Assembly (NCBI RefSeq): GCF_058153355.1
Contig: NZ_CM177019.1
Strand: one strand, 5' to 3'
Length of the DNA: 64,000 bases
Numbering within the stretch: position 1 is the stretch's first letter; the number at the start of each line of letters is the position of its first letter. The notes below the pieces were generated by a model. It was not told the DNA's origin. It made no database searches and saw only the letters and a list, made by a program, of their open reading frames with translations. Position numbers and translations under genes: made by a program. Below, piece by piece: positions 26,398 to 57,291 of this stretch.

Positions 26398-26463
26398 AAA
26401 CAATAGCCGCTATGACCATCTACAGGGATGGCGGCCTTCCTACATATAAAAAATGGATTTAAT

Positions 26464-27156
26464 ATGAAAAAGTTAAATGCAATAATTTTATTATCCTCTC
26501 TGACTTCCGCATCGGTATTCGCAGGCGCATACGTCGAAAACAGGGAGGCATATAATCTCGCCTCCGATCAGGGCGAGGTTATGCTACGTGTGGGTTATAA
26601 CTTCGATATGGGCGCGGGTATCATGTTAACCAATACCTACAACTTTCAGCGAGAAGATGAACTAAAACATGGATATAACGAAATCGAAGGTTGGTATCCT
26701 TTATTTAAACCAACCGATAAATTAACCATCCAGCCCGGTGGCTTAATTAATGATAAGAGCGCCGGTTCCGGTGGTGCTGTTTATCTGGATGTTAACTACA
26801 AATTTGCCCCGTGGTTTAACCTGACGGTACGCAACCGTTTTAACCATAATAACTACAGCACAACCGATTTAAACGGTGATCTGGATAATAATGACAGCTA
26901 CGAGATTGGTAACTACTGGAACTTTATTATTACCGATAAGTTCTCATATACCTTTGAACCGCATTATTTTTATAATATTAATGATTTCAACAGCAGCAAT
27001 GGCACCAAGCATCACTGGGAAATCACTAACACCTTCCGTTACCGAATTAATGAGCACTGGCTGCCCTATATTGAATTGCGCTGGTTAGACCGCAACGTCG
27101 AGCCGTACCACCGCGAGCAAAACCAGATCCGTATCGGGACGAAGTATTTCTTCTGA
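26464..27156 (+). CDS. ompL: Outer membrane porin OmpL
   Basis: Start chosen at MKKLNAIILLSSLTSASVFA (signal peptide), giving 230 aa. It has the terminal aromatic ...GTKYFF typical of a beta-barrel. Confidence 0.9.
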   Translation: MKKLNAIILLSSLTSASVFAGAYVENREAYNLASDQGEVMLRVGYNFDMGAGIMLTNTYNFQREDELKHGYNEIEGWYPLFKPTDKLTIQPGGLINDKSAGSGGAVYLDVNYKFAPWFNLTVRNRFNHNNYSTTDLNGDLDNNDSYEIGNYWNFIITDKFSYTFEPHYFYNINDFNSSNGTKHHWEITNTFRYRINEHWLPYIELRWLDRNVEPYHREQNQIRIGTKYFF

Positions 27157-27165
27157 TGTAAAAAT

Positions 27166-27199
27166 GTAAAAAGCCGCTGATATTTAAGCGGCTTTTTAC
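27166..27199 (+). terminator. Rho-independent terminator after ompL
   Basis: AAAAAGCCGCT-gatattta-AGCGGCTTTTT hairpin with a T-run, seen directly in the sequence. Confidence 0.8.
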
Positions 27200-27336
27200 A
27201 CAGATATTCACAATATAAATAACTCCCCATAATTATATAACCGCGTTGATTATAAAATATTCCTCGTCCTCTCTATCAAAGTCATTGACTACCAGGTAAG
27301 ATCTTTTCCACTGCAACACTCACAAGGAATGAGAAA

Positions 27337-28185
27337 ATGGAAAAGAAATTTTTTATGGATTGGGATAATGAAATCCCGCAAGAAGAGTTTATTAACAATA
27401 TTTTAGCCGATGAAGACCTGCCTAAAATCCGCTCTCTGATTATTGGTCGTTGGGGGGAGTGCTGGGATGAGGAAAGTTGCCAACCAATAATCGACATGTT
27501 TGTTGAACATGCCGAACGCTTTGCTCATCTCGAATCCCTATTTATCGGCGATATGGAAAGCGAAGAGTGTGAAATTTCGTGGATAAAACAAGGGGATTAT
27601 TCTCGTCTGTATGCTGCGCTGCCGAACCTGAAAAAGCTGACAATTAAAGGTACTCAGGGCCTGGAACTGGGAGAAATCGCCCATGACAAACTGGAGCATC
27701 TGGAAATTATCTCTGGCGGTACGCCGTGTGACGTGTTCGCCTCATTGCAAAATGCCCAACTGCCTGCGTTAAAAACACTTATCGTTTATATTGGCGTTGA
27801 GAATTATGGTTTTGATGCATCGCTGGATATCGTAATGAAGCTGGCGTCGAAATCCCTCTTCCCGAGCCTGACGCATCTTGGCCTGGTGAACAGCGAAGAG
27901 CAAAACGAAATCGTCCGCCGCGTGCTGGAAAGCGACATTCTGCCGCAACTGGAAGTGCTGGCACTCTCCTGCGGTACGCTTACCGACGAAGGTGCAGAGC
28001 ATCTTCTCAAACATGCCGATCGCCTTAGCCATCTGAAACTGCTGGATTTGTACCATCATTACCTGACAGAAGAGATGCAGAAAAAACTGCAAAAAACACT
28101 GACATGTACTCTCGAATTATCAGAAGCGCTAACGCCTGAAGTCTATGATGACGAAATTTATATGCATGCGATGTATACCGAATAA
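27337..28185 (+). CDS. Leucine-rich-repeat (RNI-like) protein; STM4015-family-like
   Basis: 282 aa with periodic L..L.L/I units (LESLFIGD, LKKLTIKG, LEHLEIISG, LKTLIVYIG, LTHLGLVNS, LEVLALSCGTLTDEGAEHLL, LKLLDLYHHYL). AAGGAA lies 7 nt upstream. The family name is from memory of NCBI family naming. Confidence 0.75.
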   Translation: MEKKFFMDWDNEIPQEEFINNILADEDLPKIRSLIIGRWGECWDEESCQPIIDMFVEHAERFAHLESLFIGDMESEECEISWIKQGDYSRLYAALPNLKKLTIKGTQGLELGEIAHDKLEHLEIISGGTPCDVFASLQNAQLPALKTLIVYIGVENYGFDASLDIVMKLASKSLFPSLTHLGLVNSEEQNEIVRRVLESDILPQLEVLALSCGTLTDEGAEHLLKHADRLSHLKLLDLYHHYLTEEMQKKLQKTLTCTLELSEALTPEVYDDEIYMHAMYTE

Positions 28186-29232
28186 ATGACATTTATTGGG
28201 AGAGAGTCATCTCTCCCATTATTTATCACAGAAAAGGAATTCTTCGTGATTACGCTAATTGGTCATCCTGAAAGCAAACGCACATTTTATTTTTGCCAGG
28301 CAGCGTCACGCTTACAGGAACATATCAACGTAGTGAGCTATGATCAAGCACTTACCCTGCTCTTAAATAAAGGCATGGTAAAAATCGATCCCCCCTTACA
28401 TCAGGAAACAGATATTCGCTTAATTAATACGGTTAGCCAAAACTATATTACTTTTTTACAAAAAATGGCTACCAGAAGGGAGATCCGTTTTATTAACTCA
28501 CCAGAAGGTATTATTCATCTTCTGGATAAACGCCACTGTAAGCAACGATTAGTCGAACACGCGATCCCGACACCGCCAATATTAGCGGATGATATCCGTA
28601 GCTACGATCAACTGATCGCCTGTATGCGCAGCGAAAAGGTTTATCGCGTGTTTATTAAGCCGAATTTCGGATCAGGGGCCGCCGGGGTGCTGGCTTTGAG
28701 TCTACATCCCGGCGATAACCGTCAGGCGCTTTATTGCGCCATCCAGGTTGCAGGTGACAGGCTGGTGAACAGTAAACATATTATCCGCTATGAAAACAGC
28801 GGTGATATTACGTTGATTGTGAATGCTATTTTACAACAAGACAATATTATCGAACGCTGGCTGGCAAAAGCCAGAGTGGGCAATAAAAGCTACGATTTAC
28901 GCATAGTGTACGTTAATGGTGAAATCGTCTGGCGGGTTGTCAGAACATCATCACAGCCGATCACCAATTTGCATCTGCAAAATGAAGCCATTCGTTTTGC
29001 CGATCTTAATTTACCCGCAGAAAAAGTGGCTGACATTGACACGCTTTGTCTCAACGCCATGAAACTCTACCCGGACGTACACATTGCCGGGCTTGATGTA
29101 TTACTCACGCAAAACTTAACCCCCTATATTATCGAAATTAACGGCCAGGGCGATCTTATTTATCAGGACACCTGCGAACAAAATATGATTTATCAACGCC
29201 AGATTCAGGTAATGAGAGAACACCATGTATAA
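28186..29232 (+). CDS. ATP-grasp (RimK/GshB-like) ligase; STM4014-family-like
   Basis: Motifs VFIKPNFGSGAAGV, YDLRIVYVNGEIV and AGLDVLLTQNLTPYIIEINGQGDL are present. The ATG abuts the upstream stop (TAAATG). An alternative GTG start at 28246 has AAGGAA upstream. Confidence 0.75.
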   Translation: MTFIGRESSLPLFITEKEFFVITLIGHPESKRTFYFCQAASRLQEHINVVSYDQALTLLLNKGMVKIDPPLHQETDIRLINTVSQNYITFLQKMATRREIRFINSPEGIIHLLDKRHCKQRLVEHAIPTPPILADDIRSYDQLIACMRSEKVYRVFIKPNFGSGAAGVLALSLHPGDNRQALYCAIQVAGDRLVNSKHIIRYENSGDITLIVNAILQQDNIIERWLAKARVGNKSYDLRIVYVNGEIVWRVVRTSSQPITNLHLQNEAIRFADLNLPAEKVADIDTLCLNAMKLYPDVHIAGLDVLLTQNLTPYIIEINGQGDLIYQDTCEQNMIYQRQIQVMREHHV

Positions 29233-30097
29233 CGTAACAGACGAAGTCCCGGAAAATACCCGCACGGCAATCCATTCCTGCGATGGCGAAATCAATATGA
29301 ATGATTTGATAGCCAGGGAGGCGAATGTTCTGTTTGTAGTGCTTGATTCCCTGCGTTTTGATATTGCGTTTCAGGAACAAGAGGCGGGCAATACGCCGAA
29401 CATTAACCGCTATGGTCGCTGGATAAAGTGCGAAGCCGCTGGCAATTTTACCTGGCCTTCGCATCATTCGATGTTTTCTGGTTTTATGCCTAAGCCGCTG
29501 GAAGCCGCACCGGGCCATTCAATGCTCTTTTTTCCCAAAGATATTGGCTTAGGGCGTTTAGGGCCAAAAAATGCATTCGCATTCAGCGAAGAGACGTGGA
29601 TTAAAGGGCTGGAAAACAAAGGTTACCGCACTATCTGCGTGGGTGGCATCTCCTTTTTTAATAACCGCTCAGGGATGGGAAAAGTGTTCCCGGCGATGTT
29701 TAAAGAGAGTTACTGGTATCCTAATTTCTCCTGCACGGTGAAAGAGAGCATGGATAATCAGCTCACCTTAATTAACAAAAAGGTGAACGCTGAACAGCCG
29801 CTGATGATGTATATCAATATCGACACCATTCATTATCCGAATCATTTTTATATTGAAAATGCCAAACCTGGCGATACGGTAGAAACTCACGCCGCTGCCC
29901 TGCATTATATTGATGCCAGAATCGAAAAACTTTTCGATATCTTTCGGCAAACCGGGCGGGAAACGTTAGTTATTCTCTGTTCCGATCATGGCACCTGCTA
30001 CGGGGAAGACGGTAAATATTTCCACAGTTTTAACCATCCGATTGTGAATACCGTACCCTATTTTCACTTTGTGTTAGACGGCAAAGACCATGAATAA
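29225..30097 (+). CDS. Alkaline-phosphatase-superfamily hydrolase (nucleotide pyrophosphatase/phosphodiesterase-like); STM4013-family-like
   Basis: VVLDSLRFD, FTWPSHHSMFSG and LCSDHGTCYGEDG resemble the NPP/AlkP metal-ligand and nucleophile motifs. The gene overlaps the upstream gene by 8 nt. Confidence 0.7.
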   Translation: MYNVTDEVPENTRTAIHSCDGEINMNDLIAREANVLFVVLDSLRFDIAFQEQEAGNTPNINRYGRWIKCEAAGNFTWPSHHSMFSGFMPKPLEAAPGHSMLFFPKDIGLGRLGPKNAFAFSEETWIKGLENKGYRTICVGGISFFNNRSGMGKVFPAMFKESYWYPNFSCTVKESMDNQLTLINKKVNAEQPLMMYINIDTIHYPNHFYIENAKPGDTVETHAAALHYIDARIEKLFDIFRQTGRETLVILCSDHGTCYGEDGKYFHSFNHPIVNTVPYFHFVLDGKDHE

Positions 30098-31232
30098 TGA
30101 ATCGATTTATCAGCAATATATGTACAGTTACCCGCATAAGACCGCTTATCGGGAATTAAACAATATTGCTTTTGCGGATGTGAAATCGCGTATTTACGAG
30201 CATAAAACACATCTCTATATTCATATGCCTTTTTGCCAGAGCCGCTGCGGGTTTTGTAATCTCTTTACCTGCACGGGGGCAGACAATGCCTTTATCGACA
30301 ACTACATAGAAGCAATTATTATCCAGGCCCGGCAAATGCAACTTGCGCCTGTAGACTGGGCCAGTTTTACCATTGGCGGCGGTACGCCACTACTGCTTAA
30401 TACCGGGCAACTGTCACGGTTGTTTCGCGGGGTGTTTGACGAATTACAGGTCGATGCGCAGATTTTTAAGGCAATTGAAACATCGCCTTCCGATACCACC
30501 GCCGAAAAGGTCGCGTTATTGCGCCAGCTTGCGGTAAGCCGCGGCAGGGGTAATTTCCCGATAATCAATATTGATATTATTTACGGTATTCCTGGTCAAA
30601 CAGCCGCAAGTTTAATGGCGTCGCTTAATCAGGCATTAGATTATCAGCCTGACGAACTTTTTTTGTACCCGCTGTATAACATGCCGCGCCAGCCGGATAT
30701 GTATAGCCTCTATATTGAAGCCCGCGATCGCTTATTGCATGAAGGTTATACGCAAACGTCAATGCGCCGTTTTGTGCGGGTGAATAATGAGTCGACGGCT
30801 GAAAGTTGTGGCTTTGAAAATTCGCTGGCGCTTGGCGCGGGCGGGCGCAGTTATCTTGGCAATTTACATTACTGCACGCCGTGGTCGCAAAACCAGCCCG
30901 CATCGCGGCAAATTGTCACGGATTTTATCGCCCGGCCAGATAAGACCCAGATTCACCACGGCTATGTACTTTCACAAGCAGAAATGAAGCGGCGTTTTAT
31001 TATCAAGAATCTCTTTTTCTATAAGGGGCTTTCGTTACGGGATTATCAGCATCAGTTCTTCTCTGAGGTATTAAGCGATTTTCCCCTGCTGGGAGATTTC
31101 ATCAAACAAGATTACTGCCACCAGCAGGATAATCGTATTCTGCTCACCGCGCAGGGTTTAGCGCTTTCGGACCAGCTTGGCCCGCTGTTTATCTCCCCGG
31201 AAGTTCGCAGGCTGGAGACGCATAAACGATGA
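30090..31232 (+). CDS. HemN-like radical SAM protein; STM4012-family-like
   Basis: HMPFCQSRCGFCNLF (CxxxCxxC), IGGGTPLLL and NIDIIYGIPGQT parallel the HemN motifs found in the same window. It overlaps the upstream gene by 8 nt. Confidence 0.8.
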   Translation: MNNESIYQQYMYSYPHKTAYRELNNIAFADVKSRIYEHKTHLYIHMPFCQSRCGFCNLFTCTGADNAFIDNYIEAIIIQARQMQLAPVDWASFTIGGGTPLLLNTGQLSRLFRGVFDELQVDAQIFKAIETSPSDTTAEKVALLRQLAVSRGRGNFPIINIDIIYGIPGQTAASLMASLNQALDYQPDELFLYPLYNMPRQPDMYSLYIEARDRLLHEGYTQTSMRRFVRVNNESTAESCGFENSLALGAGGRSYLGNLHYCTPWSQNQPASRQIVTDFIARPDKTQIHHGYVLSQAEMKRRFIIKNLFFYKGLSLRDYQHQFFSEVLSDFPLLGDFIKQDYCHQQDNRILLTAQGLALSDQLGPLFISPEVRRLETHKR

Positions 31233-32086
31233 CGCTCAAGCAGATCCAGACGCTGATTTATCGCGGCGAGATAAAGTCGTGTAATTATCGCTGTGGTTAT
31301 TGCCCTTTTCATAAACAAGACCGCAATGATAAACAGCAGGATGAAGTGGCATTATGGCGCATGGTTGAACATTTACCGGCGCTGGGTTCACCATTAAATG
31401 TATTTATTACGCCCTACGGCGAAGCATTGCGTTATCGTTATTATATGGCGGCGATGGCGGAAATCAGCCGCTATTCCCATGTGCAGGCGGTGGGTATTCA
31501 GACCAACGCCTCTTTTAATTTATCCACCTTAGTCGCGACTTTTCAGCACTCTCAGGGCGATTTAGCAAAGCTGCGGCTGTGGTGTTCGTTTCATCCTTCC
31601 CAGGTCAGTAAAGAAGTTTTCCTTAAACAGTTACTGGCAATTAAGGACACGGGGATTACCTGTTCTGTGGGGGCCGTCGCCAGCGTAGCCGACTATGACG
31701 AATTACAGTGGTTACGCGCGCATCTTCCTCCCGATATCTATTTCTGGCTAAACGCCAATGAGCGCGATAAAAGGCCCACCAGCGACGAAAGAAATAGCCA
31801 GTTTCAGTTGCTGGACCCGCTTTATTATCTGGAAACCAGCCTCTGGCCTGCCAATGTCGAGTTTTGTCTGGGCGGCAAAAAGAGCGTGTTTATGAATGCT
31901 GATGGCGATCTCTTCGCCTGTAATATCAGCAAAATTAAGATTGGCAATTTATATCAACAGCAACTTTCATCTCCGGCTTGTATGTCCAGGCACTGTCACT
32001 GTTATCTGGCTTATCACCTGCGTGAGGATATTCCGGCCCTCTCACAATTTGATGCTGAACGCTGCTTTCGGATCTTCTCGTTATGA
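31229..32086 (+). CDS. Small radical SAM protein; STM4011-family-like
   Basis: N-terminal SCNYRCGYCPF (CxxxCxxC) and a Cys-rich C-terminal region. ATGA overlap with the upstream gene. Confidence 0.75.
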   Translation: MTLKQIQTLIYRGEIKSCNYRCGYCPFHKQDRNDKQQDEVALWRMVEHLPALGSPLNVFITPYGEALRYRYYMAAMAEISRYSHVQAVGIQTNASFNLSTLVATFQHSQGDLAKLRLWCSFHPSQVSKEVFLKQLLAIKDTGITCSVGAVASVADYDELQWLRAHLPPDIYFWLNANERDKRPTSDERNSQFQLLDPLYYLETSLWPANVEFCLGGKKSVFMNADGDLFACNISKIKIGNLYQQQLSSPACMSRHCHCYLAYHLREDIPALSQFDAERCFRIFSL

Positions 32087-32778
32087 TCTGGCGGTTAATC
32101 GCGCTCGATTTAGACGGCACATTGCTGAACAGCAAGAAGATGATTTCCCCTGCGTCTGTTTCGGCACTGCAAAGCGCACAACAGGCAGGTGTGAAGATTA
32201 TCCTTGCCACCGGACGTTCGCACAGCAAAGCCCTGCCTTATTACCAACAATTGCAGTTAACCGAGCCGATGATTTGCTGTAACGGCAGCTATCTTTATCA
32301 TCCGCGCCAGCGGCAAATATTGCGTCCGCTGGCGCTTGATATCCACAAGGTGGAACAACTACGACTCTGGTTTTCACAACAAATATTGCAGCCAAATATT
32401 TATACGTACGATGATTTTGTTTTGCAGATTAGCCTGATACACCGCAAGACTTCGTTATTGCGCCAGACAGAGGAATTTGCCCGGCAAGAATTATCGCTGG
32501 CCTGTAGCTGGTCCTGGCATCATCAACTGGATATTACTCAGGCGGGGTGCGATAAAGGCAAAAGTCTGCTCTGGTATGCCCAGCAGCAAAATATCGCGCT
32601 GGATGAAATTATTGCCTTTGGCGACAACGATAATGATGCGGGGATGCTGCGGATGGTAGGCAAAGGGATTGCGATGGGCAATGGCAGTTCGCTGGCAAAA
32701 GTCAGTGCTGACCGCGTTATTGGTCACAACAACACAGATGCTATTGCGGATTTTCTTGATGCGCAGGGTTTCAGATGA
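32083..32778 (+). CDS. Cof-type HAD-IIB phosphatase
   Basis: Motif I (IALDLDGTLLN), ILATGRS, KGKSL and FGDNDNDAGML are present. ATGA overlap with the upstream gene. Confidence 0.8.
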   Translation: MIWRLIALDLDGTLLNSKKMISPASVSALQSAQQAGVKIILATGRSHSKALPYYQQLQLTEPMICCNGSYLYHPRQRQILRPLALDIHKVEQLRLWFSQQILQPNIYTYDDFVLQISLIHRKTSLLRQTEEFARQELSLACSWSWHHQLDITQAGCDKGKSLLWYAQQQNIALDEIIAFGDNDNDAGMLRMVGKGIAMGNGSSLAKVSADRVIGHNNTDAIADFLDAQGFR

Positions 32779-32779
32779 C

Positions 32780-32816
32780 GCCTGATGCGATGCTGGCGCA
32801 TCTTATCAGGCCTACA
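32780..32816. repeat. REP (repetitive extragenic palindromic) element
   Basis: gcctgatgcgatgctggcgcatcttatcaggcctac is a typical REP palindrome. Confidence 0.8.
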
Positions 32817-32821
32817 AAAGC

Positions 32822-32852
32822 AAAAAACCTGCCATCGCTGGCAGGTTTTTTA
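32822..32852. terminator. Bidirectional rho-independent terminator between the HAD gene and typA
   Basis: AAAAAACCTGCCA-tcgc-TGGCAGGTTTTTT has an A-run and a T-run flanking a 9-bp stem. Confidence 0.85.
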
Positions 32853-32868
32853 TGACTAAAAAACGAAA

Positions 32869-34692
32869 TTAATCGTCTTTCGGTGCGCGGTTGGCGCGAC
32901 GACGATCGTTTTCCGTCAGGTGACGTTTACGAATACGGATAGAGGTCGGAGTCACTTCTACCAGTTCGTCATCATCGATGAACTCCAGAGCTTGTTCCAG
33001 AGTCATGCGGATAGGCGGAACCAGAACAACGGCTTCGTCAGTACCGGAAGCACGCATGTTGGTCAGTTTCTTACCGGTCAGACAGTTTACAGTCAGGTCG
33101 TTAGAGCGGCTATGAATACCGATAATCTGACCTTCGTAAACTTCTGCACCGTGACCGAGGAACAGCTTACCGCGATCCTGCAGACCGAACAGCGCGAACG
33201 CGACCGCTTTACCCTGACCGTTAGAGATCAGTACACCGTTCTGACGCTGTCCCACTTCGCCCGGACGTACGTCGTCGTAGTGGCTGAAGGTGGAGTACAG
33301 CAGACCAGTACCGGAAGTCATGGTCATGAACTCAGAACGGAAGCCAATCAGACCACGGCTTGGGATCACGTAGTCGAGACGTACGCGGCCTTTACCGTCT
33401 GGATTCATGTTTTTCAGGTCGCCTTTACGTTCGCCCAGCGCCTGCATCACAGAACCCTGATGCTGTTCTTCAACGTCCAGAGTCACGTTTTCATACGGCT
33501 CTTGTTTACGACCGTCGATTTCACGGAAGATAACTTTCGGACGGGATACCGCCAGTTCGAAACCTTCACGACGCATGTTTTCGATCAGAACAGACAGGTG
33601 CAGTTCGCCACGACCAGAAACGCGGAACGCATCGGCGTCTTCAGTTTCTTCTACGCGCAGCGCAACGTTGTGTACCAGTTCTTTGTTCAGACGATCCAGG
33701 ATCTGACGAGACGTTACGAACTTACCTTCTTTACCGCAGAACGGCGAGGTGTTAACGCAGAAGAACATAGAAACGGTCGGCTCATCAACGGAGAGTGCCG
33801 GCAGCGCTTCAACGTTTTGCGTGTCGCAAACGGTGTCAGAAATGTTCAGTTCGCCCAGGCCCGTGATCGCCACGATATCGCCAGCTTCCGCCAGATCGGT
33901 TTCGATACGTTCCAGACCGAGGTGGCCCAGCACTTTACCGACTTTCGCGTTGCGGGTTTTGCCTTCGCTATCGATGATAGTAACTTGCTGGTTCGGCTTC
34001 ACTTTACCGCGCTTGATGCGGCCAATGCCGATAACGCCAACATAGCTGTTGTAATCGAGCTGAGAAATCTGCATCTGGAACGGACCGTCAAGGTCAACGT
34101 CCGGCGCAGGAACGTGGTCAACAATTGCCTGATACAGCGGGGTCATGTCTTCCGCCATATCTTCGTGGTCCAGACCGGCGATACCGTTCAGCGCAGAAGC
34201 GTAAACGATCGGGAAGTCCAGCTGCTCGTCGGTCGCGTCGAGGTTAACGAACAGGTCGAATACCTGATCCACAACCCAGTCAGGACGCGCGCCAGGGCGG
34301 TCAACTTTGTTGATAACAACAATCGGCTTCAGGCCATAAGCAAACGCTTTTTTGGTTACGAAGCGCGTTTGCGGCATCGGGCCGTCAAATGCGTCAACCA
34401 CCAGCAGCACTGAGTCTACCATGGACATTACACGTTCAACTTCACCACCGAAGTCGGCGTGCCCCGGGGTATCAACGATGTTGATACGGTAATCATTCCA
34501 TTTGATAGCGGTGTTTTTCGCGAGGATGGTAATCCCACGCTCTTTCTCCAAATCGTTGGAGTCCATCACGCGCTCTTGGGTTTCGGCACGAGAGTCGAAC
34601 GTACCAGATTGTTGGAGCAGCTTGTCTACCAGGGTGGTTTTACCATGGTCTACGTGCGCGATGATGGCGATATTACGCAATTTTTCGATCAC
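32869..34692 (-). CDS. typA: Ribosome-dependent translational GTPase TypA/BipA
   Basis: 607-aa [35 protein letters not shown]... with G1-G4 GTPase motifs, matching E. coli BipA. Confidence 0.97.
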
Positions 34693-34843
34693 AACTTTGC
34701 CTCAGGCATTAGAAATAGCGCGTTATTGTACACGGATTAATCGCACTACAAAACAGGATCACAAACATCCTCCGCAAACAAGTATTGCAGAGTCCCTTTG
34801 TGATCGCTTTCACGGAGCATAAAAAGGGTTATCCAAAGGTCAT

Positions 34844-34925
34844 TGCACCAATATGGTGCTTAATGTTTCCATTGAAGCACTATATTGGTGCAACATTCAC
34901 ATCATGGTGCAGCCCTTTTGCACGA
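34844..34925 (+). promoter_or_regulatory. glnA upstream enhancer: NtrC-binding sites
   Basis: TGCACCAatatGGTGCT (34844-34860) and GCACtatattGGTGC (34877-34891), plus weaker copies, match the NtrC dyad TGCACC-N5-GGTGCA. Confidence 0.85.
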
Positions 34926-39569: not shown

Positions 39570-40943
39570 TTAAATCACCCGTGAGAACTGCTGCATCCGC
39601 GCTTTCTGGCGCAGATAGGTATCAAAGCACATGCAAATGTTGCGGATCAGCAGGCGACCTTTCGCCGTTACCTGAATCCCCTTCTCATCCACATCCACCA
39701 GCCCATCTTTTGCTAACGGGGCAAGCAGCTTGAGATCTTCTGCAAAGTAGTCAGCGAAGAGCAAATCCCACTGTTGCTCAATAGGGGCGTAATCCAGACG
39801 GAAGTTGCAGATGAGCGACTTAATCACATCGCGGCGAATACAGTCATCACGCGTTAGCGCAATACCACGCCACAGCGCATTGCCTTGTTCATCCACTTGC
39901 TGATAGTACTGCTTCAACTCTTTCTGGTTCTGCGCGTAGCAGTCGCCAATCATGCTGATGGCGGAAACGCCCATCCCCAGCAGATCGGTATCGCCCTGAG
40001 TGGTGTAGCCCTGGAAGTTACGATGCAGCACGCCTTCACGCTGGGCCACCGCCAGCTCGTCATCCGGACGGGCAAAGTGATCCATACCGATAAACTGATA
40101 GCCCGATTGTGTCAGGAAGGCGATGGTTTCCTGCAGGATATCCAGTTTTTGCTGTGGACTCGGCAGGTCAGCATCTTTGATTTTTCGCTGAGCAGCAAAA
40201 ATGGTCGGCAGATGCGCATAGTTAAAGACGCTCAGACGATCGGGGTTCAGCTCCGCCACGCGTTTCAGGGTAAAAGCGAAACTCTCCGGCGTCTGTTTCG
40301 GCAGGCCGTAAATCAGGTCGATGTTGGTGGAGGTAAAGCCAATCTCACGCGCATGGTTAAGCAGTGCAAAGATGAACTCTTCATCCTGCTCGCGGTTAAC
40401 CAGACGTTGCACTTCTTTATTGAAGTCCTGCACGCCCATGCTCAGGCGATTAAAGCCTTCGGCGCGTAAATGATCGAGTACATCCAGTTCGATTTCCCGC
40501 GGATCGACTTCGATCGAAATCTCCGCATCGGCATTGAACTGGAAGTTTTCGCGCAGCAGCTTCATCAGGCGGCTGATTTGCGCTTTGTTCAGATACGTCG
40601 GCGTACCACCGCCCCAGTGCAATTGGCTGACGTGACGCCCGGCGAACAGCGGTGCACGATGGACGATTTCTTGCTCCAGTGCGTCCAGATACTGATCGGC
40701 CTTGTGCTGCTGGCGAGTAACAATCTTATTGCAACCGCAGAAGTAACAAAGCTTATGGCAGAACGGGATATGTACGTAGAGAGATAATGGACGCTCAGGA
40801 TAGCGCGCCACGGCTTGTAAAAACGCCTGTTCGCCGAAGTCTTCTGAAAACTCCAGCGCGGTTGGGTACGAGGTGTATCGTGGCCCGGAATAGTTATATT
40901 TCTGGATCAGGGCCAGATCCCAGTCGATTTGCTGTACAGACAT
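39570..40943 (-). CDS. hemN: Oxygen-independent coproporphyrinogen III dehydrogenase HemN (radical SAM)
   Basis: Trimmed to MSVQQIDWDLALIQKYNYSGPRYTSYPTALEF (457 aa). It contains HIPFCHKLCYFCGC. Confidence 0.97.
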   Translation of the reverse strand: MSVQQIDWDLALIQKYNYSGPRYTSYPTALEFSEDFGEQAFLQAVARYPERPLSLYVHIPFCHKLCYFCGCNKIVTRQQHKADQYLDALEQEIVHRAPLFAGRHVSQLHWGGGTPTYLNKAQISRLMKLLRENFQFNADAEISIEVDPREIELDVLDHLRAEGFNRLSMGVQDFNKEVQRLVNREQDEEFIFALLNHAREIGFTSTNIDLIYGLPKQTPESFAFTLKRVAELNPDRLSVFNYAHLPTIFAAQRKIKDADLPSPQQKLDILQETIAFLTQSGYQFIGMDHFARPDDELAVAQREGVLHRNFQGYTTQGDTDLLGMGVSAISMIGDCYAQNQKELKQYYQQVDEQGNALWRGIALTRDDCIRRDVIKSLICNFRLDYAPIEQQWDLLFADYFAEDLKLLAPLAKDGLVDVDEKGIQVTAKGRLLIRNICMCFDTYLRQKARMQQFSRVI

Positions 40944-41131
40944 GCTCACTCCTTCCGATGGCGTCTCTGGCGGCTACGGCGTACCGGCGGATGCCCGTTT
41001 CGAGTCATCAGCCGGTTGCGCAGCCACTTTTGTCGCCGCGACAACCGCTGTAGTTTAACGAATAACCACACCAGATAACATATAACCGGAAGGGTTATCA
41101 GCAGAACGGGAAGGCCCACGGCGGCAATCCG

Positions 41132-41641: not shown

Positions 41642-41705
41642 AATGGTTCGTCTTTTAGCCGTTTTATTCAGTATAGATTTGCGGCGGAATCTAACAGAAA
41701 GCAAG

Positions 41706-41952
41706 CAAAGAAAAAAGGCGACAGATTACTCTGTCGCCTTTTTTCCTGACTCATAACCCTTAACGGGTCTTACAATCCTTGCAGGCCGCCAACACACCCT
41801 GTTTTTCCATTAGCCGGAACAATCCGTGTTGATTCCATTTCCGTTTAATTACGTCTCCGGACGTTTGTCTTCCTGACAATCCTCTGTCTTCGCCTCCTGG
41901 CGCTCCTGACCCTCATCCTGAGTCATTGTTCCTGTTAGCGTCCTCGCTCTAT
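41706..41952 (-). ncRNA. csrC: CsrC small RNA (CsrA-sequestering)
   Basis: The minus strand begins ATAGAGCGAGGACGCTAACAGGAAC, carries many (C)AGGA(N)G CsrA-binding motifs, and ends in the terminator AAAAAAGGCGACAG-agtaat-CTGTCGCCTTTTTT. It lies between engB and yihI, as in K-12 (recall). Confidence 0.88.
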
Positions 41953-42980: not shown

Positions 42981-43089
42981 TAAAAAACGCCCCAGTCATT
43001 ACTGACTGGGGCGGCTAAAATATTCAGCCAAATCCGATTACGTGAAGTAAAAGGTCTGAAAGATAGAACATCTTACCTCTGTACCCTAC
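42981..43089 (-). ncRNA. spf: Spot 42 small RNA
   Basis: The reverse complement reads GTAGGGTACAGAGGTAAGATGTTCTATCTTTCAGACCTTTTACTTCACGTAATCGGATTTGGCTGAATATTTTAGCCGCCCCAGTCAGTAATGACTGGGGCGTTTTTTA (109 nt), the Spot 42 sequence as I recall it. It lies downstream of polA. Confidence 0.95.
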
Positions 43090-43236
43090 GCGACTAACTT
43101 TACTCTTTTTTGTTCAGTTCAGAAAGCATTTTTTGTAATTTTTTTTCAGTTGTTGCATAGGAATTTCTAATAGCCATCACAAAACGTGACAGCTTATGTT
43201 GCTTACTTACGAAAAAAGGGCATGTTCAGGCGAATC

Positions 43237-52185: not shown

Positions 52186-52305
52186 ATGCCTGGCAGTTCC
52201 CTACTCTCGCATGGGGAGACCCCACACTACCATCGGCGCTACGGCGTTTCACTTCTGAGTTCGGCATGGGGTCAGGTGGGACCACCGCGCTAAGGCCGCC
52301 AGGCA
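52186..52305 (-). rRNA. rrfA: 5S ribosomal RNA (rrnA operon)
   Basis: The reverse complement reads TGCCTGGCGGCCTTAGCGCGGTGGTCCCACCTGACCCCATGCCGAACTCAGAAGTGAAACGCCGTAGCGCCGATGGTAGTGTGGGGTCTCCCCATGCGAGAGTAGGGAACTGCCAGGCAT (120 nt). Confidence 0.97.
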
Positions 52306-52398
52306 AATTCTGTTTCATCAGACCGCTTCTGCGTTCTGATTTAATCTGTATCAGGCTGAAAATCTTCTCTCAATCCGCCAAAACACCTTCGGCGTTGT

Positions 52399-55303
<2,905 letters not shown>

Positions 55304-55486
55304 TCACAACCCGAAGATGTTTCTTGCGATTCATCATCGTGTTGCGAAAATTTGAGAGACTCACGAACAACTTTCGTTGTTCAGTGTTTCAATTTTCAGC
55401 TTGATCCAGATTTTTAAAGAGCAAAACTTCGCAGTGAACCTTTGCAGGTACACTCTGAAGTATTTTTTATTTAATCACTACAGAGA

Positions 55487-55562
55487 TGGTGGAGCTATGC
55501 GGGATCGAACCGCAGACCTCCTGCGTGCAAAGCAGGCGCTCTCCCAGCTGAGCTATAGCCCC
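55487..55562 (-). tRNA. alaT: tRNA-Ala (UGC), spacer tRNA
   Basis: The reverse complement reads GGGGCTATAGCTCAGCTGGGAGAGCGCCTGCTTTGCACGCAGGAGGTCTGCGGTTCGATCCCGCATAGCTCCACCA (76 nt). Confidence 0.97.
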
Positions 55563-55604
55563 ATAACATGTAGTTAAAACCTCTTCAAATTTGCGGTGCA
55601 AATT

Positions 55605-55681
<77 letters not shown>

Positions 55682-55749
55682 GTAGAGGTTTTACTGCTCA
55701 TTTTCATCAGACAATCTGTGTGAGCACTGCAAAGCACAGTTCTTTAAGG

Positions 55750-57291
<1,542 letters not shown>

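What the first reader, a model, noticed from the sequence alone, without database searches (positions are those of the whole stretch)
27337..32778. Six-gene translationally coupled cassette of unknown function: LRR protein, ATP-grasp ligase, AlkP/NPP-like hydrolase, two radical SAM enzymes and a HAD phosphatase
Seen in sequence:
- Six same-strand ORFs have abutting or overlapping stops and starts: TAAATG at 28183-28188, 8-nt overlaps at 29225 and 30090, and ATGA overlaps at 31229 and 32083. This indicates a single operon with coupled translation.
- The block is bounded by the ompL terminator upstream and by a REP element plus a bidirectional terminator downstream.
- Domain motifs are unambiguous for each protein (see the feature evidence), but together they match no pathway I know.

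From memory, these correspond to the Salmonella LT2 STM4010-STM4015 genes. Their families are named only after the locus tags (STM4011 and STM4012 radical SAM, STM4013 hydrolase, STM4014, STM4015), meaning they are conserved but functionally undescribed.

Inference: two radical SAM enzymes, an ATP-dependent carboxylate-amine ligase and two phospho-ester hydrolases suggest synthesis or remodelling of a phosphorylated small molecule, such as a nucleotide or sugar-phosphate derivative. The LRR protein could act as a binding or sensor/scaffold partner. An LRR protein within a bacterial enzyme operon is unusual in itself. I found no precursor-peptide ORF, transporter or regulator inside the block.
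Basis: partly seen in the sequence, partly recalled or inferred. Interest (0 to 1): 0.85.

Follow-up and report, generated by a model that had tools for sequence, protein, structure and literature searches.

The report
Uncharacterised LRR-protein tail modification cassette
This is a real, widely conserved six-gene operon of unknown function, probably enzymes that build something on the invariant C-terminal glutamate of its own leucine-rich-repeat protein; this strain's copy carries a likely inactivating deletion in one enzyme.

Summary
Six same-strand genes at 27337-32778 match the NCBIfam STM4015, STM4014, STM4013, STM4012 and STM4011 families plus a Cof-type HAD phosphatase, between the ompL and typA terminators. 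I found no paper on their function.

Two corrections:
- The first junction is not TAAATG coupling. STM4014 starts at GTG 28246, after a 60-nt spacer that holds a stem-loop.
- The STM4012 (HemN-like radical SAM) gene has a 96-nt in-frame deletion. It removes 13 family-invariant residues and is seen in no complete E. coli genome searched, so this copy is probably defective.

Comparative genomics:
- At least 571 species carry the cassette, mostly gut Clostridia.
- 55 of 67 informative loci have all five core genes in the same order. Seven have only STM4015 plus STM4014.
- The phosphatase is usually fused to STM4011, and once replaced by a PHP phosphoesterase.

New lead: all 82 STM4015 proteins from the genome loci end in ...TE-stop, and 141 of 147 distant representatives end in Glu. 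All detected extra domains lie on the N-terminal side.

I infer that the LRR protein is the substrate or scaffold of the RimK/LysX-like ATP-grasp ligase, with radical SAM and phosphoesterase tailoring. That step is inferred, not shown.

The parts
27164..27201 (.). ompL terminator hairpin; upstream boundary of the cassette
   Evidence: Terminator-like stem of 15 pairs followed by a T-run; sequence read.
27337..28185 (+). STM4015-family protein (282 aa), an RNase-inhibitor-like LRR solenoid; proposed substrate or scaffold
   Evidence: NF038076 323 bits against a cut-off of 275. AF2 model pLDDT 95.5. Foldseek best hit is PDB 2RA8 (42% identity, TM 0.90), followed by COI1, TIR1, NLR and RNase-inhibitor LRRs. 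About 50% identical to Firmicutes homologues.
28162..28182 (+). Codons for the C-terminal tail MHAMYTE, ending in the invariant Thr-Glu-stop
   Evidence: T281 and E282 are invariant in 80 aligned homologues. All 82 ORFs from 80 species loci end in TE. 141 of 147 distant representatives end in Glu.
28197..28218 (+). Intercistronic stem-loop between the STM4015 stop and the STM4014 start
   Evidence: 9-bp stem, folding at -18.3 kcal/mol for the spacer. The spacer differs at one base outside the stem in E. coli L002 and is identical in L001. Superficieibacter has a hairpin of different sequence at the same place. Its function is inferred: possibly differential expression of the first gene.
28246..29232 (+). 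STM4014-family ATP-grasp ligase (328 aa from GTG 28246; AAGGA Shine-Dalgarno 7 nt upstream)
   Evidence: NF038074 335 bits. Weak matches to MptN, RimK, LysX and CofF. Pfam ATPgrasp_ST and YheCD. Start position supported. Conserved K138, GSGAAG, D217-x-R219, TNLH, D284, E297 and N299. hhalign against E. coli RimK gives E=0.002 over 211 columns.
29225..30097 (+). STM4013/SEN3800-family alkaline-phosphatase-superfamily hydrolase or transferase (290 aa) with a Thr nucleophile
   Evidence: NF038075 350 bits. Pfam Sulfatase and Phosphodiest. Conserved (>=95%) D41, T76 within GNFTxPSH (the sulfatase CxPSR position), and D254-H255 in SDHGTCYGEDG.
30090..31232 (+). STM4012-family HemN-like radical SAM gene carrying a 96-nt in-frame deletion (380 aa instead of 412); junction near 30543/30544
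   Evidence: NF006067 matches in two stretches. Alignment to E. coli L001 and L002 shows the loss of VSIGIQSFNDLELATLHRRHSAENAHRALELL. The lost segment equals HemN residues 166-197. It contains 13 residues that are at least 95% conserved in 59 family members. No complete E. coli genome shares the deletion.
31229..32086 (+). STM4011-family radical SAM enzyme (285 aa) with a C-terminal Cys-rich SPASM/twitch-like domain
32083..32778 (+). Cof-type HAD-IIB phosphatase (231 aa, DLDGT motif intact)
   Evidence: TIGR00099 183 bits against a cut-off of 137. The same domain is fused to STM4011 in 44 of 56 loci. It is replaced by a PHP phosphoesterase in L092.
32745..32812 (+). REP-like element after the last gene
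   Evidence: Weak naRNA4/REP match, 32.1 bits.
32821..32852 (.). Bidirectional terminator shared with typA; downstream boundary of the cassette
   Evidence: 14-pair stem with T-runs.

Best explanation
**Proposed mechanism (inferred).** The cassette is a self-contained maturation system that works on the C-terminus of its own first gene product.
- STM4015 is an about 31 kDa LRR solenoid that always ends in a free ...[S/T/G/A]-Glu. I propose it is the substrate or scaffold.
- STM4014 is an ATP-grasp ligase whose nearest characterised relatives are the RimK, LysX, MptN and CofF glutamate-directed ligases. I propose it activates a carboxylate of the terminal Glu as an acyl-phosphate and ligates an amine to it, either an amino acid or a phosphorylated amine.
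- The appended or terminal residue is then remodelled by the HemN-like radical SAM enzyme STM4012 and the SPASM/twitch radical SAM enzyme STM4011.
- Phosphoryl groups are handled by the Thr-nucleophile alkaline-phosphatase-type enzyme STM4013 and by the HAD (or PHP) phosphatase that is usually fused to STM4011.
- The end product is either a permanently modified LRR protein or a small molecule assembled on the protein, as with LysW or pearlin scaffolds.

**Shown.** Gene content, co-inheritance, the invariant terminal Glu, intact catalytic motifs and the fusions.

**Inferred.** That the tail is the ligation site, and all of the chemistry.

**Separate claim about this window.** The STM4012 step is very probably dead because of a 32-aa in-frame deletion (my estimate about 0.8). 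If so, the pathway is incomplete in this strain.
For: 1. Terminal Glu.
 - T281 and E282 are invariant in 80 homologues.
 - 82 of 82 ORFs from 80 species loci end in TE-stop.
 - 141 of 147 representatives at 50% clustering end in Glu, with tails YPM[LI]TE or RY[VI]AV[SGA]E. The exceptions look like fragments.
2. Extra domains (WGR, TPR, Sel1, LRR, KOW) were found only on the N-terminal side, which leaves the C-terminus free.
3. STM4014 lies immediately downstream of STM4015 in nearly all loci, often overlapping it. Seven species keep only the STM4015 plus STM4014 pair among housekeeping genes.
4. Among characterised families, STM4014 matches MptN, RimK, LysX and CofF best. It aligns with E. coli RimK over the whole catalytic region and shares the DxR and NLH motifs. 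From established knowledge, RimK extends the C-terminal Glu of ribosomal protein S6, and LysX ligates to the C-terminal Glu of LysW.
5. One locus has three tandem STM4015 paralogues, all ending in ITE. This resembles multi-precursor clusters.
6. Both radical SAM enzymes have close structural or sequence relatives that act on peptides or proteins: NocN for STM4012, and SkfB, SuiB, anSME, EpeE and PqqE for STM4011.
7. Among the 80 genome loci, no gene family other than the five core ones recurs in more than 15 loci, so there is no conserved transporter, regulator or peptidase. That fits an intracellular protein-centred system.
8. A stem-loop follows the first gene in enterobacteria. This is consistent with higher expression of a stoichiometric substrate.
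9. For the defect in this copy.
Against: - There is no direct evidence that the tail is modified.
- The AF2 model predicts the last 25 residues to be ordered (pLDDT 75-94, short strands) rather than a floppy tail. The conserved terminus could therefore be structural, or a ligand or metal contact.
- STM4014 is far below the RimK and LysX family cut-offs (38 against 143 bits). A family profile finds only weak Ddl hits in the PDB. Its best Pfam hit is a 'sugar-transfer associated' ATP-grasp.
- Two phosphoesterases are not obviously needed for a pure protein modification.
- Some family members sit alone without the cassette (L091).
Confidence: 0.45

Rival explanations
1. This is a free small-molecule pathway. 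The five enzymes would make or remodel a phosphorylated metabolite such as a nucleotide, sugar phosphate or phosphonate-like compound. The LRR protein would be a non-substrate partner (chaperone, scaffold or regulator) that merely binds the enzymes or the product.
For: - There are two phosphoesterases. The HAD can be swapped for a PHP phosphoesterase, which indicates that a phosphomonoester step is integral.
- The best Pfam match of the ATP-grasp is 'sugar-transfer associated'.
- The tail is predicted ordered in the AF2 model.
Against: - It does not explain why the protein must end exactly in Glu in nearly every family member across phyla.
- It does not explain why all detected fusions are N-terminal.
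- It does not explain why STM4015 plus STM4014 persist as a pair without the other enzymes.
- It does not explain why STM4015 is as conserved as the most conserved enzyme of the set (about 50% identity between Proteobacteria and Firmicutes).
- No transporter or regulator is conserved nearby.
Confidence: 0.3
2. This is an anti-phage or conflict system. The LRR protein would sense an invader, as NLR receptors do, and the radical SAM and phosphatase enzymes would produce a toxic or chain-terminating nucleotide, as viperin does.
For: - Distribution in E. coli is patchy: 157 of 5426 complete genomes. The cassette sits at a variable site that K-12 fills with yihLMN.
- The LRR fold resembles NLR and RNase-inhibitor LRRs.
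- STM4011 resembles viperins.
- An nSTAND NTPase plus TPR gene lies next to the cassette in L003-L005.
Against: - None of the six proteins hits PADLOC.
- No effector or other conserved neighbour is found. The flanks are mostly housekeeping genes.
- The LRR is very conserved, with many invariant polar residues. That is unlike fast-evolving sensors.
- The Salmonella protein clusters hold 925 to 2701 member sequences, so the cassette appears widespread there.
- The nSTAND neighbour occurs only in one set of near-identical contigs.
Confidence: 0.08
3. This is a sulfatase-maturation pair. STM4011, an anSME-like SPASM radical SAM enzyme, would oxidise the active-site residue of the sulfatase-like STM4013, and the rest would be accessory.
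For: - STM4013 hits Pfam Sulfatase at 2e-16.
Against: - The nucleophile position is a conserved Thr (at least 95% of 64 sequences), in T-x-P-S-H rather than C/S-x-P-x-R. From established knowledge, this is typical of phosphoryl-transfer members of the superfamily, which need no formylglycine.
- No anSME family HMM is hit.
- It does not explain the LRR protein, the ATP-grasp ligase, the HemN-like enzyme or the fused phosphatase.
Confidence: 0.05

Closest known systems
LysW/LysX amino-group carrier-protein pathways (lysine and arginine biosynthesis in Thermus and archaea, and AmCP-dependent secondary metabolism in Streptomyces)
   Same: - An ATP-grasp ligase is encoded next to a protein whose conserved C-terminal Glu is the attachment point.
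- Further enzymes then work on the tethered group.
- LysX is among the best characterised-family matches of STM4014.
   Different: - The carrier here is a 282-aa LRR solenoid, not a roughly 55-aa zinc-ribbon protein ending in EDWGE.
- The tailoring enzymes are two radical SAM enzymes and two phosphoesterases, not a kinase, reductase and aminotransferase.
- STM4014 is far below the LysX cut-off (31 against 276 bits).
- No release hydrolase is evident.
RimK and ribosomal protein S6 (C-terminal poly-glutamylation)
   Same: - The ATP-grasp ligase has shared DxR and NLH motifs and aligns over the whole catalytic region.
- The target would be a protein ending in Glu that is preceded by an acidic stretch.
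   Different: - STM4014 scores 38 bits against the 143-bit cut-off, so it is not a family member.
- The partner is a dedicated, co-encoded LRR protein.
- Four more enzymes are co-inherited.
RiPP and scaffold-peptide ('pearlin') biosynthesis, mycofactocin (MftA/MftC) and PQQ (PqqA/PqqE)
   Same: - The substrate is gene-encoded, with a conserved C-terminal motif, and is placed first in the operon.
- A SPASM/twitch radical SAM enzyme is structurally close to SkfB, SuiB, EpeE and PqqE.
- A HemN-like enzyme is related to the thiopeptide methyltransferase NocN.
- One locus has tandem substrate paralogues.
   Different: - The 'precursor' is a large, highly conserved folded protein.
- No RRE domain, leader peptidase or exporter is conserved.
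- The appended chemistry, if any, would be installed by an ATP-grasp enzyme rather than by a tRNA-dependent PEARL.
HemN, the oxygen-independent coproporphyrinogen III oxidase
   Same: STM4012 shares the CxxxCxxC, GGGTP and RxSxGxQxF core and a HemN_C-like tail.
   Different: - It scores 82 bits against the 325-bit cut-off for HemN.
- The true hemN lies 7 kb away at 39570-40949 on the minus strand, scoring 805 bits.
- The copy in this window also lacks the GxQSF...R segment.
PDB 2RA8 (Bacteroides fragilis Q64V53, a structural-genomics entry)
   Same: It is a true family member: E=1.6e-71 and 42% identity, TM 0.90, and it ends in ...YPMITE.
   Different: - It has an about 80-aa N-terminal extension; same-length family members carry a WGR domain there, but I did not scan 2RA8 itself.
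- Eight residues follow the native ...MITE end in the deposited chain, which I take to be a purification tag.
- The deposited name is 'uncharacterized protein', and I found no paper on its function.

Membership tests
NCBIfam NF038076 STM4015 family | Whole-protein HMM score above the curated cut-off (275 bits) | tested here: met
   323.1 bits over residues 4-281.
NCBIfam NF038076 STM4015 family | LRR solenoid fold ending in a conserved C-terminal ...x-Glu (a feature I derived here, not NCBI's definition) | tested here: met
   AF2 pLDDT 95.5; TM 0.90 to 2RA8. The window protein ends in ...MYTE. 82 of 82 and 141 of 147 relatives end in Glu.
NCBIfam NF038074 STM4014 family (ATP-grasp) | HMM score above the cut-off (175 bits) and intact ATP-grasp motifs | tested here: met
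   335.5 bits. K138, GSGAAG, D284, E297 and N299 are conserved.
NCBIfam NF038075 STM4013/SEN3800 hydrolase | HMM score above the cut-off (250 bits); alkaline-phosphatase-superfamily metal ligands and nucleophile | tested here: met
   349.8 bits. D41, T76 and D254-H255 are present and conserved (>=95%).
NCBIfam NF006067 STM4012 family radical SAM | HMM score above the cut-off (380 bits) | tested here: met
   424.8 bits, but in two stretches with a gap in the model.
NCBIfam NF006067 STM4012 family radical SAM | Complete radical SAM core, including the conserved R-x-S-x-G-x-Q-S-F ... R-x-H segment | tested here: not met
   32 aa are deleted relative to the 412-aa E. coli orthologues. 13 residues at least 95% conserved in 59 members are lost. 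The segment corresponds to HemN 166-197.
NCBIfam NF038073 STM4011 family radical SAM | HMM score above the cut-off (200 bits); CX3CX2C motif plus a C-terminal Cys cluster | tested here: met
   299 bits. C18, C22, C25, C213, C231, C256 and C258 are invariant.
Cof-type HAD-IIB phosphatase (TIGR00099) | HMM score above the cut-off (137 bits); DxDGT motif I | tested here: met
   182.6 bits; DLDGT at residues 9-13. It is below the cut-off of the pyridoxal-phosphatase equivalog (210 against 274).
RimK family (TIGR00768) | HMM score above the cut-off (143.4 bits) | tested here: not met
   38.2 bits. hhalign against E. coli RimK gives E=0.002, probability 14%. It works like RimK at best and is not a member.
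LysX/LysW amino-group carrier system | LysX equivalog score (275.6 bits), and a small zinc-ribbon carrier ending in EDWGE | tested here: not met
   LysX scores 31 bits. The partner is a 282-aa LRR protein ending in MYTE. Only the terminal Glu is shared.
HemN (TIGR00538) | HMM score above the cut-off (325 bits) | tested here: not met
   81.9 bits. The real hemN, at 39570-40949 on the minus strand, scores 804.6.
Canonical RiPP gene cluster | Short leader/core precursor peptide, an RRE-containing recognition domain, and a leader peptidase and/or exporter | tested here: not met
   No conserved neighbour beyond the five or six domains in 80 loci. The candidate substrate is a folded 282-aa protein.
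Anaerobic sulfatase-maturing enzyme plus sulfatase | C/S-x-P-x-R motif in the sulfatase; anSME family HMM | tested here: not met
   The motif is T-W-P-S-H with a conserved Thr (>=95%). No anSME HMM hit.
Known or candidate anti-phage defence systems (PADLOC-DB 2.0) | Any component matching a defence-system HMM | tested here: not met
   Zero hits for all six proteins at E<=0.01.
Protein C-terminal ligation by STM4014 | Covalent modification of Glu282 of STM4015 | not testable with these tools
   This needs mass spectrometry or in vitro reconstitution. No multimer prediction was available.

The most novel reading that the evidence does not exclude
This would be a new class of protein-templated biochemistry. 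A dedicated LRR protein would present its invariant C-terminal Glu to an ATP-grasp ligase, and two radical SAM enzymes plus two phosphoesterases would then build a new C-terminal prosthetic group or a releasable metabolite. The system is widespread in gut Clostridia, Bacteroidales, Salmonella and a minority of E. coli.
Probability: 0.35. Interest if true: 0.85.

Novelty: new variant of a known kind. Interest (0 to 1): 0.72.

Why it matters
- The cassette is common. At least 571 species genomes in GTDB carry it, and the family profile hits thousands of protein clusters. Hosts include many human and mouse gut Lachnospiraceae and Salmonella enterica. I found no experiment addressing it.
- It contains two radical SAM enzymes of unknown chemistry.
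- It also contains an LRR protein whose exact C-terminus is conserved across phyla. That gives a sharp, cheap experiment: mass spectrometry of STM4015 with and without STM4014.
- If the tail hypothesis is right, carrier-protein or C-terminal-tail biosynthesis (LysW, RimK, pearlins, mycofactocin) would extend to a new scaffold type. It would also assign a role to a solved but unexplained structure, 2RA8.
- For this particular genome the practical message is different. The cassette is probably crippled by a strain-specific deletion, so functional work should use an intact allele.

Tried and rejected
- **Literature.** I searched for STM4010-15, SEN3798-3802, 2RA8/Q64V53 and several domain combinations. 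The only mentions are in expression, ChIP or selection tables. The Iyer et al. 2009 amidoligase paper is not held.
- **Defence annotation.** PADLOC gave no hits.
- **Extra conserved neighbours.** Clustering all ORFs of 80 loci found none present in more than 15 loci. The genes beside the STM4015 plus STM4014 pairs are housekeeping: 2-oxoacid:ferredoxin oxidoreductase, LysR, pyruvate kinase and an exonuclease.
- **PDB sequence searches.** STM4014 and STM4011 gave nothing as single sequences. An STM4014 family profile gave only marginal Ddl hits.
- **Fold searches for STM4011.** The neighbours mix peptide-acting and nucleotide- or sugar-acting radical SAM enzymes, so they do not settle the substrate class.
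- **Sulfatase-maturase idea.** Rejected because the nucleophile position is a conserved Thr (>=95%).
- **TAAATG coupling of genes 1 and 2.** Rejected.
- **HAD as pseudogene.** I considered whether the 231-aa HAD is truncated. It has the same length in all E. coli relatives examined and keeps its motifs, so I do not treat this as a lesion.
- **Not done.** A complex prediction of STM4015 with STM4014 was not possible with the tools available.

Full report
**1. What is in the window**

The window is an E. coli-type chromosome segment. Its gene order is the sulfoquinovose genes yihQ/yihP/yihO, then ompL (26428-27156), the cassette, typA/bipA (32869-34692, minus strand) and glnA. Six plus-strand ORFs fill 27337-32778.

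HMM searches place five of them above the curated cut-offs of NCBIfam families that are named only after Salmonella locus tags:
- STM4015: 323 bits
- STM4014: 335 bits
- STM4013/SEN3800: 350 bits
- STM4012: 425 bits
- STM4011: 299 bits

The sixth is a Cof-type HAD-IIB phosphatase at 183 bits.

Pfam adds weak LRR, ATP-grasp (ST and YheCD types), Sulfatase/Phosphodiest, Radical_SAM plus HemN_C, Radical_SAM plus SPASM, and Hydrolase_3.

Four junctions are true overlaps (29225, 30090, 31229, 32083).

**2. Two corrections to the observation**

(a) The TAAATG junction is not a real coupling.
- The STM4014 model aligns only from ORF residue 23.
- RefSeq annotation in two E. coli relatives starts the gene at the GTG that corresponds to window 28246.
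- The Superficieibacter orthologue has an ATG aligned to that GTG.
- An AAGGA box lies 7 nt upstream of the GTG.
- The 60-nt spacer holds a 9-bp stem-loop at 28197-28218. The E. coli relatives keep the same stem, and Superficieibacter has a hairpin of different sequence at the same place.

(b) The STM4012 gene is 380 aa here but 412 aa in the closest E. coli relatives.
- A 96-nt in-frame deletion, with its junction near 30543/30544, removes VSIGIQSFNDLELATLHRRHSAENAHRALELL.
- Aligned to HemN (PDB 1OLT), this is residues 166-197. The segment includes the GxQxF motif and an Arg that I recall as SAM-binding residues Q172 and R184. That recollection is from the HemN structure paper and I did not check it here.
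- Independently of that recollection, 13 residues that are at least 95% conserved in 59 family members fall inside the deletion.
- A 120-nt probe across the junction matched every E. coli carrier only as two pieces 96 nt apart. No complete genome in the collection shares the deletion.
- The other five genes are intact and 96.5-100% identical in protein to the nearest E. coli cassette.

So this copy is very probably defective at one step, but the lesion is private to this strain.

**3. Distribution and co-inheritance**

- In E. coli, 157 of 5426 complete genomes carry at least 80% of the cassette. K-12 has yihL-yihM-yihN at the same ompL-bipA site.
They are mostly Lachnospiraceae and other Clostridia, with some Bacteroidales, Bacillales and Superficieibacter.
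- Of the best 80 loci, 67 have enough flanking DNA to judge. Of these, 55 contain STM4015, 4014, 4013, 4012 and 4011, almost always in that order. The Bacteroidales loci have a different order but the same gene set.
- In 44 of 56 loci the STM4011 ORF is at least 478 aa, because a Cof-type HAD domain is fused to its C-terminus. In one distant locus a PHP-family phosphoesterase takes the place of the HAD. The phosphatase step is therefore integral to the system.
- Clustering all ORFs of the 80 loci found no other family in more than 15 loci. There is no conserved transporter, regulator, peptidase or RRE protein.
- Seven related Eubacterium loci keep only STM4015 plus STM4014, set among housekeeping genes.
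- PADLOC gives no hit.

**4. The LRR protein**

The AF2 model has pLDDT 95.5 and shows a short RNase-inhibitor-type LRR solenoid.

- The best PDB match is 2RA8, an uncharacterised Bacteroides fragilis structural-genomics protein (42% identity, TM 0.90, E=1.6e-71). After it come COI1, TIR1, NLR and RNase-inhibitor LRRs.
- The protein is unusually conserved, at about 50% identity between E. coli and Firmicutes. It has many invariant polar residues, including E79, S81, W82, Q85, H116 and E120.
- T281 and E282 are invariant in 80 homologues.
- All 82 ORFs from the 80 species loci end in [AP]-[MLV]-x-T-E-stop.
- A full profile search hit 5115 clusters, 963 of them at E<=1e-30. Of the 147 best representatives, 141 end in Glu, with two tail types...YPM[LIFY]TE and ...RY[VI]AV[SGA]E. 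The few exceptions look like fragments.
- A member of the second tail type (L088) is still within the NCBIfam cut-off and sits in the same five-gene cassette.
- All extra domains detected (WGR, TPR, Sel1, further LRRs, KOW) lie on the N-terminal side.
- One locus encodes three tandem paralogues, all ending in ITE.

**5. The enzymes**

- **STM4014.** It keeps the ATP-grasp Lys, the Gly-rich loop and the Mg ligands. Its best characterised-family matches are MptN, RimK, LysX and CofF, all well below cut-off. Against E. coli RimK it aligns over 211 columns (E=0.002) and shares the DxR and NLH motifs. PDB sequence searches give only marginal Ddl hits.
- **STM4013.** It has the alkaline-phosphatase-superfamily core. 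Conserved (>=95%) residues include D41, D254-H255 and a Thr (T76) at the position of the sulfatase Cys/Ser, in the motif GNFT-x-PSH. From established knowledge, a Thr nucleophile is the signature of phosphoryl-transfer members such as NPP, EptA/MCR-1 and LtaS.
- **STM4012.** It is a HemN paralogue (1OLT E=1e-26; NocN E=7e-23). The true hemN lies at 39570-40949 on the minus strand.
- **STM4011.** The AF2 model has pLDDT 95.1. It is a SPASM/twitch-type radical SAM enzyme. Its neighbours mix peptide- or protein-modifying enzymes (SkfB, SuiB, anSME, EpeE, PqqE) with nucleotide- or sugar-modifying ones (BlsE, MoaA, viperin, DesII).
- **Fused HAD domains.** The nucleophile Asp is kept, but the second Asp of motif I varies among D, E, Q and M.

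**6. Interpretation**

The pattern is a protein that must end in a free Glu, tightly paired with a RimK/LysX-like ATP-grasp ligase, with the pair able to stand alone. This is best explained if STM4015 is the substrate or scaffold and its terminal Glu is the ligation site. RimK/S6 and LysX/LysW work this way (established knowledge).

The radical SAM enzymes and the two phosphoesterases would then tailor whatever is attached. The product would be either a modified protein or a released metabolite. This is an inference, and I put it at about 0.45.

Points that weaken it:
- the tail is predicted ordered rather than floppy;
- the ATP-grasp enzyme is only remotely RimK-like;
- the phosphoesterases hint at a phosphorylated small molecule.

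The main rival, at about 0.3, is a free small-molecule pathway with the LRR protein as a non-substrate partner. It does not account for the terminal-Glu rule. A defence role (about 0.08) and sulfatase maturation (about 0.05) are poorly supported.

**7. Novelty**

The families are already catalogued by name, and one member has a deposited structure. My literature searches found only incidental mentions.

If the scaffold model holds, the system is a new variant of carrier-protein or C-terminal-tail biosynthesis. It could also turn out to be something further afield.

Noticed in passing
window 28197-28218: A stem-loop sits in the 60-nt spacer after the STM4015 stop. The two E. coli relatives keep the same stem. 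Superficieibacter (L008 10828-10880) has a hairpin of different sequence at the same place. It may set the ratio of the first gene product to the enzymes.
   Followed up: partly
window 39570-40949 (-): The genuine hemN (TIGR00538, 805 bits) lies only 7 kb from the HemN-like STM4012 gene. The cassette enzyme is therefore a paralogue, not the housekeeping oxidase.
   Followed up: yes
L077 1116-3756: A Defluviitaleaceae contig has three tandem STM4015 paralogues, all ending in ...MITE. They are followed directly by STM4013 and STM4012, and no STM4014 is visible on the short contig.
   Followed up: partly
L092 6587-7336: A PHP-family phosphoesterase follows STM4011 where the HAD phosphatase usually is. 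In this locus STM4015 is fused to N-terminal TPR repeats.
   Followed up: partly
L043 1157-3064: A single 635-aa ORF spans both STM4014 and STM4013 in frame in a Hungatella MAG. It is either a real ligase-hydrolase fusion or an assembly artefact.
   Followed up: no
fused HAD domains of STM4011 in L009-L087: Motif I reads FLD[IV]-[D/E/Q/M]-GTL. The nucleophile Asp is kept, but the general acid/base Asp at position +2 is often replaced. The fused domain may not be an ordinary phosphatase.
   Followed up: partly
L031 8680-10263: A gene for an AAA-ATPase-like plus PD-(D/E)XK protein is inserted between STM4015 and STM4014 in one Lachnospiraceae MAG.
   Followed up: no
L003-L005 15960-18980: An nSTAND-type NTPase and a TPR protein (fused in L004) lie directly downstream of the cassette in one set of near-identical gut contigs. 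This is not conserved elsewhere.
   Followed up: partly
L091 1547-2482: A distant STM4015-family protein ending in ...RYIAVGE sits without the cassette. It is next to another LRR protein and two large sulfatases.
   Followed up: no
window 32816-32884 (-) and 34774-34881 (-): An STnc370-like sRNA match (53.2 bits, just under the gathering score of 54) overlaps the typA terminator. An ES222 sRNA match (133 bits) lies upstream of typA.
   Followed up: no
window 41699-41952, 42981-43099, 52188-57291 (all -): CsrC, Spot 42 and a complete rRNA operon (5S, 23S, two tRNAs, 16S) are present downstream. This is ordinary E. coli context.
   Followed up: no
L089 (E. coli K-12 4060447-4063512): K-12 carries yihL-yihM-yihN between bipA and ompL where this window has the cassette. 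The site holds alternative gene sets within the species.
   Followed up: partly
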